Part shown: piece after piece, positions 57,001 to 59,589 of the stretch | How positions within the stretch are numbered: the stretch's first letter is position 1 | Layout: each line of letters starts with the position of its first letter | From: Escherichia coli | GTDB lineage: Bacteria > Pseudomonadota > Gammaproteobacteria > Enterobacterales > Enterobacteriaceae | Strand: one strand, 5' to 3' | Length of the DNA: 64,000 nt | Assembly: GCF_044324785.1 (NCBI RefSeq) | Contig: NZ_CP172127.1 | Program-made: the position numbers

Positions 57001-59589
57001 CACCCCGATGATATTGTTTTTACGGCAGATGTTATCGATCAGGCGACGATTGAACGCGTCAGTGAATTGCAAATTCCGGTGAATGCGGGTTCTGTTGATA
57101 TGCTCGACCAACTGGGTCAGGTTTCGCCAGGGCATCGGGTATGGCTGCGCGTTAATCCGGGGTTTGGTCACGGGCATAGCCAAAAAACCAATACTGGTGG
57201 CGAAAACAGCAAGCACGGTATCTGGTACACCGATCTGCCCGCCGCACTGGACGTGATACAACGTCATCATCTACAGCTGGTCGGCATTCACATGCACATT
57301 GGTTCTGGCGTTGATTATGCCCATCTGGAACAGGTATGTGGTGCTATGGTGCGTCAGGTCCTCGAATTCGGTCAGGATTTACAGGCTATTTCTGCGGGCG
57401 GTGGGCTTTCTATTCCTTATCAACAGGGTGAAGAGGCGGTTGATACCGAACATTATTATGGTCTGTGGAATGCCGCGCGTGAGCAAATCGCCCGCCATTT
57501 GGGCCATCCTGTGAAACTGGAAATTGAACCGGGTCGCTTTCTGGTAGCGCAGGCTGGCGTATTAATTACTCAAGTGCGGAGCGTCAAACAAATGGGTAGC
57601 CGCCACTTTGTGCTGGTTGATGCCGGGTTCAACGATCTGATGCGCCCGGCAATGTACGGTAGTTACCACCATATCAGTGCCCTGGCAGCTGATGGTCGTT
57701 CTCTGGAACACGCGCCAACGGTGGAAACCGTCGTCGCCGGGCCATTATGTGAATCGGGCGATGTCTTTACCCAGCAGGAAGGGGGAAATGTCGAAACCCG
57801 CGCCTTGCCGGAAGTGAAGGCAGGTGATTATCTGGTACTGCATGATACAGGGGCATATGGCGCATCAATGTCATCCAACTACAATAGCCGTCCGCTGTTA
57901 CCAGAAGTTCTGTTTGATAATGGTCAGGCGCGGTTGATTCGCCGTCGCCAGACCATCGAAGAATTACTGGCGCTGGAATTGCTTTAACTGCGGTTAGTTG
58001 CTGGTTGCATGATGACTTGCCTCCAGCGACGGAGTTGACACTGAATGGCGACGTACCAGCGTCGGGCTAAAGACATTAGTGATTTCCGGGAGAGGGCGAT
58101 TATCCGCCAGCGCCAAAGCCAGTTCGGCAGCCTGGGTCGCCATCGTCACGATTGGGTAACGCACGGTGGTCAGGCGCGGACGCACATAGCGTGACACCAG
58201 CACATCATCAAAGCCAATTAACGAAATCTCACCCGGTACATCAATACCATTATCATTGAGAACGCCCATCGCGCCCGCCGCCATTGAATCGTTATAACAG
58301 GCTACCGCAGTGAAATTTCTTCCTCGTCCCAAAAGCTCGGTCATTGCCTGTTCGCCGCCGCTTTCGTCTGGTTCGCCAAATGTCACCAGGCGGTCATTGG
58401 CCGGAATACCACTTTCAGCAAGGGCATCGTAATACCCTTGCAGACGATCTTCGGCGTCAGAAATAGAGTGGTTAGAGCACAGATAACCAATGCGGGTATG
58501 ACCTTGCTGAATTAAATGACGCGTTGCCAGCCAGGCACCGTAACGATCGTCCAGAGCAATACAACGGTTTTCAAAGCCAGGCAGGATACGGTTGATCAGC
58601 ACCATACCGGGCATTTGTTTCATTAATGAGGCTAAATCGACATCCGGGATCATTTTGGCATGGACAACCAGTGCAGCACAGCGATGGCGGATCAGTTGCT
58701 CAATGGCCTGACGCTCTTTTTGTTCGTTGTGGTAACCGTTGCCAATCAATAAAAAATTACCGGTGTGATAAGCCACCTGTTCGACCGCTTTCACCATTGC
58801 ACCGAAAAACGGATCGGAAACATCACCAACGACCAGACCGACCGTTTCAGTGGTCTGCTGTGCCAGCGCACGGGCGTTGGCGTTCGGGTGATAGCTAAGA
58901 GACTCCATTGCACTATGCACAGCCAGCCGGGAAGCTTCGCTGGCTTTGGGTGAATTATTAATGACGCGGGAAACGGTGGCGACTGAAACGCCTGCCAGTC
59001 GGGCTACATCCTTTATGGTCGCCATGAAAATACCTTAGTGGGTAAACGCTTACATTCTTTCAGTGTTACGGAAAACGCCCGTTGGTTCAAGGGGCGGCGT
59101 GTTTTCATCGTGGGAATGTGAGCCAAACGCAAATAAGTAAGACAAAAAAAGAGATTGCAAACCTTTGGTTACACTTTGCGAAACGCTGTTGCGATTGACC
59201 GCTGGTGGCGTTTGGCTTCAGGTTGCTAAAGTGGTGATCCCAGAGGTATTGATAGGTGAAGTCAACTTCGGGTTGAGCACATGAATTACACCAGCCTGCG
59301 CAGATGCGCAGGTTTTTTTTTGCCGGTCATCAATCTGTAACAGTAACCGACAATTTACACACCTCGTTGCATTTCCCTTCATTCCTTTGCGTTTTCTCGC
59401 TGGCGAAGAGTCGTCGTGCAGACCACAATCAAGATCCCAGAGGTATTGATTGGTGAGATTATTCGGTACGCTCTTCGTACCCTGTCTCTTGCACCAACCT
59501 GCGCGGATGCGCAGGTTTTTTTTCGCACCTAATTTACTGTCGCTCGCGTTCTTTATCTCGTGTAATCTCCCTCCATTCGCTTTTACTGA

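What the first reader, a model, noticed from the sequence alone, without database searches (positions are those of the whole stretch)
59239..59523. Tandem OmrB/OmrA sRNA genes in the galR-aas intergenic region
Two ~85-nt units share the 5' sequence CCCAGAGGTATTGAT and a 3' GC hairpin plus U-run but differ centrally. I recognise these as the OmpR-regulated sRNAs OmrB and OmrA. They are core-genome features and could be mistaken for REP elements or terminators.
Basis: established knowledge. Interest (0 to 1): 0.3.

Follow-up and report, generated by a model that had tools for sequence, protein, structure and literature searches.

The report
Known OmrB and OmrA small RNAs
The two repeated ~85-base units between galR and aas are the well-known E. 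coli regulatory small RNAs OmrB and OmrA, identical to the K-12 genes, so the finding is correct but ordinary.

Summary
The observation and the interpretation are both confirmed. Window 59239-59320 (+) is omrB (82 nt) and 59436-59523 (+) is omrA (88 nt). Both match Rfam RF00079 (OmrA-B) at full length, at 86.1 and 96.6 bits against a gathering score of 40. Both are identical at every base to the annotated K-12 genes b4445 and b4444. They lie in the same place as in K-12, between divergent galR and co-oriented aas. The pair is found in 5423 of 5426 complete E. coli genomes. The same gene order appears in more than 40 loci from other Enterobacterales. Homologues keep the GGUG/CACC stem, a central hairpin of variable sequence, and a terminator with compensatory base changes. 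The shared 5' end is predicted to pair at the published sites on ompR, ompT and cirA mRNAs. The promoter features described in the literature are also present: an OmpR/RstA box with GTTACA upstream of omrB, and a C at -12 in the omrA -10 element. The only difference from K-12 that touches either gene is one extra T in the OmrB terminator T-run. These are Hfq-dependent, OmpR-activated, seed-pairing repressor sRNAs. They are already known, and interest is low.

The parts
59239..59320 (+). omrB gene (82 nt; the T-run continues to 59321)
   Evidence: Rfam RF00079 at 86.1 bits, full length. Identical to K-12 b4445.
59436..59523 (+). omrA gene (88 nt)
   Evidence: Rfam RF00079 at 96.6 bits, full length. 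Identical to K-12 b4444.
59239..59259 (+). OmrB 5' conserved region (nt 1-21), containing the target-pairing seed
   Evidence: Shared with OmrA apart from nt 16. Predicted duplexes with the ompR, ompT and cirA translation initiation regions use nt 1-14. Its role in pairing was shown by compensatory mutations in PMC2588501.
59436..59456 (+). OmrA 5' conserved region (nt 1-21), containing the target-pairing seed
   Evidence: Same evidence as for OmrB (PMC2588501).
59262..59276 (+). OmrB central hairpin (variable region)
   Evidence: Present in the minimum-free-energy fold. All 45 homologues have a hairpin of at least 4 bp in the centre despite divergent sequence.
59465..59481 (+). OmrA central hairpin (variable region; reported to carry OmrA-specific pairing, e.g. 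with btuB)
   Evidence: The review PMC12692685 describes use of the central region for btuB.
59293..59321 (+). OmrB intrinsic terminator: 9-bp GC hairpin plus a T-run of 9 (probable Hfq-binding 3' module)
   Evidence: Terminator scan. Across 45 homologues 100% of cells are paired, with 3 compensatory pairs. One T more than in K-12.
59496..59523 (+). OmrA intrinsic terminator: 9-bp GC hairpin plus a T-run of 8
59164..59173 (+). PomrB upstream activator box (part of 'box B2'; OmpR/RstA consensus with GTTACA at -71 to -66)
   Evidence: With +1 at 59239, the T-75 and A-68 bases mutated in PMC13425233 correspond to 59164 (T) and 59171 (A). Those mutations cut activation by plasmid-expressed OmpR from 81-fold to 3.3-fold.
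59227..59232 (+). PomrB -10 element TAAAGT (-12 to -7)
   Evidence: Read from the sequence. No consensus -35 is present, and the sigma-70 consensus scan finds nothing on the + strand, as expected for an activator-dependent promoter.
59424..59429 (+). PomrA -10 element CACAAT, with C at -12
   Evidence: Read from the sequence. The review PMC12692685 gives C at -12 as the determinant of omrA's sigma-S preference.
57994..59025 (-). galR (upstream, divergent flank)
   Evidence: 343-aa ORF. 341 of 344 translated positions, counting the stop, are identical to K-12 GalR.
59611..61770 (+). aas (downstream flank, same strand)
   Evidence: 719-aa ORF. 714 of 720 translated positions, counting the stop, are identical to K-12 Aas.

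Best explanation
These are two independently transcribed, paralogous, trans-acting small regulatory RNAs: OmrB (82 nt) and OmrA (88 nt). [quoted passage not shown] Each ends at its own intrinsic terminator. The single-stranded 5' end they share (CCCAGAGGUAUUGAU) acts as a seed. It pairs with short complementary stretches at or near the ribosome-binding sites of many mRNAs, including ompT, cirA, fecA, fepA, csgD, flhDC and flgM, and the mRNA of their own activator ompR. With help from Hfq this blocks translation and promotes RNase E-dependent decay. The result is remodelling of the outer membrane, motility and biofilm programmes, and a negative feedback loop on OmpR. Shown here: identity, structure, conservation, gene neighbourhood, the promoter motifs, and seed complementarity at the published sites. 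Inferred from the literature on identical K-12 sequences: expression, OmpR, sigma-S and RstA control, and Hfq dependence.
For: Rfam RF00079 hits both units at full length, at 96.6 and 86.1 bits against a gathering score of 40, on the + strand only. Both are identical to K-12 omrA and omrB. The whole 585-bp intergenic region differs from K-12 only by a C/T change at 59095 and one extra T in the run at 59313-59321, so both -114 to +50 promoter fragments are identical. The galR and aas flanks are confirmed. A match is present in 5423 of 5426 complete E. coli genomes. Forty-two Enterobacterales loci passed a strict whole-gene pattern, with galR upstream and aas downstream wherever enough flank was available. 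About 60 chance matches to the 15-mer outside Enterobacterales lack the rest of the gene, which serves as a negative control. In the terminator helix 100% of cells are paired, with 3 compensatory pairs in 17 cells and none broken; slid controls give 16-53% pairing. RNAalifold recovers the same two helices independently. A central hairpin is present in 45 of 45 homologues, with a mean z of -2.1. Duplex prediction with nt 1-16 places the best pairing at ompR -23 to -10 (-16.3 kcal/mol; 1 of 500 shuffled seeds as good), ompT +7 to +21 (-17.2 kcal/mol; 0-1 of 500) and cirA -20 to -9 (-12.7 kcal/mol; 24-38 of 500). These are the sites mapped genetically in PMC2588501. The published promoter bases T-75 and A-68 of PomrB, and C at -12 of PomrA, are present at the expected coordinates.
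Against: Nothing found contradicts this. The limits are as follows. No expression data exist for the source strain. The invariance of the first 15 nt across homologues is by construction, because that 15-mer was the search pattern. The GGUG/CACC stem never varies, so covariation neither supports nor opposes it. In whole-molecule minimum-free-energy folds the first 15 nt are fully unpaired in only 13 of 45 homologues. The cirA duplex is only marginally better than shuffled seeds. The target mRNAs tested come from K-12, not from the window's own strain.
Confidence: 0.97

Rival explanations
1. The units are only structural or terminator-type repeats (REP-like elements or orphan intrinsic terminators) with no RNA product of their own.
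For: Each unit ends in a strong GC hairpin followed by a T-run. The hairpin module is repeated.
Against: No gene on the + strand lies upstream for the first hairpin to terminate, because galR is divergent. The conserved part extends about 55-60 nt upstream of the hairpin and includes a seed with an invariant GGUG. Both units match the sRNA covariance model at full length. They are annotated as ncRNA genes in K-12. The units occur only at this locus in the window and are not dispersed as REP elements are.
Confidence: 0.01
2. The units act mainly in cis as a leader or attenuator controlling read-through transcription into aas, which starts 87 nt downstream on the same strand.
For: The co-orientation with aas and the close spacing are conserved across Enterobacterales.
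Against: Two consecutive strong intrinsic terminators stand before aas. The 5' seed is complementary to unlinked target mRNAs at experimentally mapped sites (PMC2588501). Trans regulation has been shown by compensatory mutations (PMC2588501). A minor read-through contribution cannot be excluded with these tools.
Confidence: 0.02
3. The region encodes small proteins: the mechanical ORFs 59304-59456 (+, 50 aa), 59218-59382 (-, 54 aa) and 59165-59284 (+, 39 aa).
For: These ORFs appear in the six-frame ORF list.
Against: Homologous units differ in length by amounts that are not multiples of three: 81, 82, 83, 84, 85, 86, 87, 88 and 89 nt. Their central sequence is not conserved while the hairpin structure is. 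K-12 annotates no coding sequence there.
Confidence: 0.01

Closest known systems
E. coli K-12 OmrA (b4444) and OmrB (b4445); Rfam family RF00079, OmrA-B
   Same: The sequence is identical over both genes. Order, orientation, flanking genes and promoter regions (-114 to +50) are also the same.
   Different: There is one extra T in the OmrB terminator T-run (9 instead of 8). There is also one C/T difference at 59095, 144 nt upstream of omrB and outside the tested promoter fragment. No functional consequence is expected.
Single-copy or chimeric Omr genes of other Enterobacterales, e.g. Serratia, Dickeya, Erwinia, Lelliottia (the 'OmrAB' of Erwinia amylovora)
   Same: They have the same 5' seed, the GGUG...CACC stem, the terminator module and the position upstream of aas.
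   Different: Those loci carry one gene where the window has the duplicated pair about 197 nt apart. Their central regions are unrelated in sequence. PMC13425233 reports that single-copy loci always keep the omrB-type promoter.
Other 5'-seed, Hfq-dependent envelope sRNAs of E. coli (RybB, MicC, MicF)
   Same: They work in the same way: a 5'-terminal seed pairs near the translation start sites of outer-membrane protein mRNAs, and the 3' terminator serves as the Hfq module (PMC2588501, discussion).
   Different: They belong to different sequence families with different regulators (sigma-E for RybB) and different targets. They are not homologous to Omr.

Membership tests
OmrA-B sRNA family (Rfam RF00079) | Match to the family covariance model at or above the curated gathering score | tested here: met
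   96.6 bits (59436-59523) and 86.1 bits (59239-59320) against a gathering score of 40. Both cover model positions 1-87 of 87 and neither is truncated.
OmrA-B sRNA family (Rfam RF00079) | Conserved 5' end CCCAGAGGUAUUGAU-N-GGUGA at the transcript start | tested here: met
   Present at both units. GGUG is invariant in 45 of 45 homologues.
OmrA-B sRNA family (Rfam RF00079) | Conserved 3' module: CACC, then a GC-rich terminator hairpin, then a U-run | tested here: met
   Terminator-like sites at 59293-59314 and 59496-59517, each followed by a T-run. The helix is 100% paired with 3 compensatory pairs across homologues.
OmrA-B sRNA family (Rfam RF00079) | Location in the galR-aas intergenic region, co-oriented with aas | tested here: met
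   galR at 57994-59025 (-) and aas at 59611-61770 (+). The arrangement is the same in K-12 and in the Enterobacterales loci.
OmrA-B sRNA family (Rfam RF00079) | Seed complementarity to validated targets (ompR, ompT, cirA) at the mapped sites | tested here: met
   The best duplexes fall at ompR -23 to -10, ompT +7 to +21 and cirA -20 to -9, matching PMC2588501. Support for cirA is weak against shuffled seeds (24-38 of 500).
OmrA-B sRNA family (Rfam RF00079) | Transcription activated by EnvZ-OmpR | not testable with these tools
   Indirect evidence only. The promoter fragments -114 to +50 are identical to the K-12 fragments activated by OmpR-P in vitro (PMC5175337). The GTTACA box with the T-75 and A-68 bases is present.
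OmrA-B sRNA family (Rfam RF00079) | Hfq binding and Hfq-dependent regulation | not testable with these tools
   The sequence has the usual terminator hairpin and U-tail module. Hfq dependence is reported for the identical K-12 RNAs (PMC2588501, PMC12692685).
OmrA versus OmrB assignment | OmrB is the 82-nt, galR-proximal gene with a -10 element starting with T at -12. OmrA is the 88-nt, aas-proximal gene with C at -12. | tested here: met
   Unit 1 equals K-12 omrB and unit 2 equals K-12 omrA, each identical. The -10 elements are TAAAGT and CACAAT.

The most novel reading that the evidence does not exclude
The most novel reading still open is modest. The tandem pair is recombinationally unstable within E. 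coli itself. Crossovers in the shared 5' or 3' repeats would produce natural single-copy variants, either OmrB-only or chimeric, in roughly 1% of strains. This would mirror within one species the single-copy states seen between genera. One such 203-bp deletion was seen in isolate NZ_OZ039818.1. The window itself carries the ordinary intact pair.
Probability: 0.5. Interest if true: 0.15.

Novelty: already known. Interest (0 to 1): 0.07.

Why it matters
The result matters only for correct annotation. Automated pipelines often leave this interval blank: all 25 RefSeq records listed had no annotated feature under the match. The hairpins could therefore be misread as REP elements or orphan terminators. 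Recognising them as omrB and omrA places two hubs of the EnvZ-OmpR envelope, iron-uptake, motility and biofilm network in this strain. It also shows that they and their promoters are unchanged from K-12. No new biology follows from this.

Tried and rejected
1. REP element or terminator-only reading. Rejected: there is no upstream gene on the same strand, the covariance-model hits are full length, and the 5' region is conserved.
2. Small-ORF reading. Rejected: length differences between homologues are not multiples of three, and K-12 annotates no coding sequence there.
3. The sigma-70 consensus scan found no promoter on the + strand in 58900-59700. This fits activator-dependent promoters. The -10 elements were therefore located from the known transcription starts.
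4. MAFFT did not align the variable centre in register, so covariation in the central hairpin could not be counted by column. It was replaced by folding each sequence separately.
5. The GGUG/CACC stem gave no covariation signal because it never varies.
6. The three large ORFs at 11682-19029 had no Pfam, PADLOC or NCBIfam match and briefly looked like an unknown cassette. PHROGs then identified them as phage virion proteins.
7. My strict whole-gene pattern missed the short (~72-81 nt) Pantoea/Erwinia-type units seen, so those are not in the covariation set.

Full report
**Observation.** The sequence at 59239-59523 contains two units on the + strand.
- Both begin with CCCAGAGGTATTGAT. This 15-mer occurs exactly twice in the window, at 59239 and 59436, and never on the - strand.
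- Both end with CCTGCGC-N-GATGCGCAGG followed by at least eight T. This module also occurs only twice, at 59295 and 59498.
- A pairwise alignment shows identity over nt 1-21 apart from nt 16, a divergent centre, and a near-identical last ~30 nt.
- The consensus scan reports both 3' ends as 9-bp, GC-rich hairpins followed by T-runs, on the + strand only.
The one refinement is that the first unit's T-run has nine T (59313-59321).

**Identity.**
- An Rfam 15 scan of the whole window at gathering thresholds gives two hits to RF00079 (OmrA-B): 59436-59523 at 96.6 bits and 59239-59320 at 86.1 bits. Both cover model positions 1-87 of 87, against a gathering score of 40.
- K-12 MG1655 annotates omrA (b4444, 88 nt) next to aas and omrB (b4445, 82 nt) next to galR.
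- Unit 1 is identical at every base to K-12 omrB, and unit 2 to K-12 omrA.
- The whole 585-bp galR-aas intergenic region differs from K-12 at two places only. One is a C/T change at 59095, which is 144 nt upstream of omrB. The other is one extra T in the OmrB terminator run.
- The flanking ORFs are GalR (341 of 344 translated positions identical, counting the stop), Aas (714 of 720) and LplT (395 of 398).

**Distribution.**
- The 591-bp intergenic query matches 5423 of 5426 complete E. coli genomes, 5318 of them at 99% identity or more.
- The sRNA pair alone is at least 80% covered in 5371 genomes.
- About 60 of these, from unrelated phyla, are chance matches with nothing Omr-like after the 15-mer. 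They serve as a negative control.
- All the Enterobacterales matches continue with N-GGUG, then CACC, a GC hairpin and a T-run.
- Forty-two loci passed a strict whole-gene pattern. Wherever enough flank was held, galR lies upstream on the opposite strand and aas lies downstream on the same strand.
- In these loci, the Escherichia, Citrobacter, Enterobacter, Kosakonia, Pluralibacter and Edwardsiella genomes carry two copies 188-220 nt apart. Serratia grimesii has two copies 275 nt apart, while the other two Serratia loci have one. Dickeya, Lelliottia, Siccibacter and others also have one.
- This agrees with PMC13425233, which also reports that single-copy loci keep the omrB-type promoter.

**Structure.**
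- In an alignment of 45 distinct units, the terminator helix is paired in 100% of cells. Three of its pairs show compensatory double changes (UA to CG, GC to AU, CG to UA; 17 cells) and none is broken. When the 3' partners are slid by 1-3 columns, only 16-53% of cells pair and no double changes remain.
- RNAalifold independently predicts the same two helices.
- The GGUG/CACC stem is invariant, so covariation says nothing for or against it.
- The centre is too divergent to align by column. Folded alone, however, every one of the 45 centres forms a hairpin of at least 4 bp, with a mean z of -2.1 against shuffles and z below -1 in 41 of 45.
- The two window RNAs fold with z-scores of -2.9 and -2.7, and in OmrA the first 15 nt are left unpaired.
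- A caveat: the invariance of the first 15 nt across homologues is a consequence of how they were found.

**Promoters.**
- With +1 at 59239, the omrB -10 element is TAAAGT (59227-59232). With +1 at 59436, the omrA -10 element is CACAAT (59424-59429). Neither has a recognisable -35 element, as expected for activator-dependent promoters.
- PMC13425233 reports that T-75C and A-68G in box B2 of PomrB abolish activation by multicopy RstAB and cut activation by plasmid-expressed OmpR from 81-fold to 3.3-fold. Those positions are 59164 (T) and 59171 (the A of GTTACA at 59168-59173) in the window. This independently supports the start coordinate.
- The review PMC12692685 attributes omrA's near-complete sigma-S dependence to a C at -12. 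The window has C at -12 in omrA and T at -12 in omrB.
- PMC5175337 showed that OmpR-P directly activates the -114 to +50 fragments of both promoters in vitro. Both fragments are unchanged in the window.

**Mechanism.**
- PMC2588501 showed by compensatory mutations that the 5' end of OmrA and OmrB pairs with cirA (-10 to -19), ompT (+12 to +20) and the ompR 5' UTR overlapping the RBS. It also showed that regulation needs Hfq and RNase E.
- I tested the pairing computationally with nt 1-16 of the window RNAs against -60 to +40 of the K-12 targets:

| Target | Best duplex position | Energy (kcal/mol) | Shuffled seeds at least as good (of 500) |
|---|---|---|---|
| ompR | -23 to -10 | -16.3 | 1 |
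| ompT | +7 to +21 | -17.2 | 0-1 |
| cirA | -20 to -9 | -12.7 | 24-38 |

- These are the published sites. The best-supported explanation is therefore the established one: two OmpR-activated, Hfq-dependent, seed-pairing repressor sRNAs that also feed back on ompR.
- Expression, Hfq binding and regulator dependence in this particular strain are inferred, not shown.

**Rival explanations.**
- A REP element or orphan terminator reading fails. There is no upstream gene on the same strand, the conserved region extends well beyond the hairpin, and the units are not dispersed.
- A cis-acting leader for aas is not excluded as a minor side effect. Two strong terminators and proven trans action make it an unlikely primary function.
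- Small ORFs are excluded by length differences between homologues that are not multiples of three, and by a centre that conserves structure but not sequence.

**Verdict.** The finding is correct in both observation and interpretation. It is already known, and interest is low.

**Side observations.**
- One E. coli isolate (NZ_OZ039818.1) has lost omrA. A 203-bp deletion with its crossover in the shared 3' terminator repeat leaves PomrB and OmrB joined to omrA's downstream flank.
- The window also carries about 19 kb of integrase-bearing island at glyU, and an apparently intact type III secretion block where K-12 has an IS2 element and pseudogenes.

Noticed in passing
window 1563-20792: About 19.2 kb absent from K-12 sits directly 3' of glyU (tRNA-Gly CCC, 1488-1561). 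It carries a P4-type integrase (1687-2940), the int-alpA RNA (2985-3052, Rfam RF02996 at 46.9 bits), an AntA-like protein (4367-5191), an Icd-like C-terminus in ORF 5581-6771, a DUF927 primase-like protein (7323-9449) and a ProQ/FinO-like protein (10119-10616). Three large ORFs follow (11682-14213, 14213-16273, 16252-19029). They have no Pfam, PADLOC or NCBIfam match but hit PHROGs at full length (phrog_992, phrog_1145, phrog_684: virion, head or ejection-type proteins). This looks like a composite of a P4-like satellite and a prophage remnant.
   Followed up: partly
window 22076-39019: About 17 kb has no K-12 counterpart, at the spot where K-12 has an IS2 element and pseudogenes (ygeK to ygeP). 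It includes a FHIPEP (InvA/EivA-type) export-apparatus protein at 26732-28792 (E = 7e-207) and a run of co-oriented ORFs. From my own knowledge of the glyU-linked ETT2 island, this is most likely the intact ETT2 type III secretion cluster that is degraded in K-12.
   Followed up: partly
L126 (E. coli NZ_OZ039818.1) 2288-2669: This E. coli isolate has a single Omr gene in a 382-bp galR-aas interval. It consists of the omrB promoter and OmrB body joined to omrA's downstream flank. That amounts to a 203-bp deletion with its crossover inside the shared terminator repeat, removing omrA. Of the 5423 E. coli genomes with a match, 52 have less than 80% of the pair covered.
   Followed up: yes
L029 2747 and 4789; L058 647 and 2680 (Pantoea): In Pantoea the two Omr-type units are about 2.03 kb apart instead of about 200 nt. 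One is a short ~76-nt type and the other a ~91-nt type with a CCCACGC/GCGTGGG terminator, so something is inserted between the paralogues.
   Followed up: no
window 44905-45131: About 227 bp falls between two blocks that match K-12 and has no K-12 counterpart. The K-12 coordinates of the two blocks abut or overlap at about 2990484-2990492, between yqeK and ygeF. It is a small insertion of unknown nature.
   Followed up: no
window 59041-59056: The sequence TGGGTAAACGCTTACA in the galR leader, just upstream of the galR start codon on the - strand, is a near-palindrome. It resembles the GalR/GalS operator consensus, which I recall from memory and did not test.
   Followed up: no
E. coli genome collection: One of the 5427 places that match the galR-aas intergenic query lies on a plasmid record rather than a chromosome. 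In the search with the sRNA pair alone, about 39 records show two matching places, which could mean the interval is split by an insertion. None of these was inspected.
   Followed up: no
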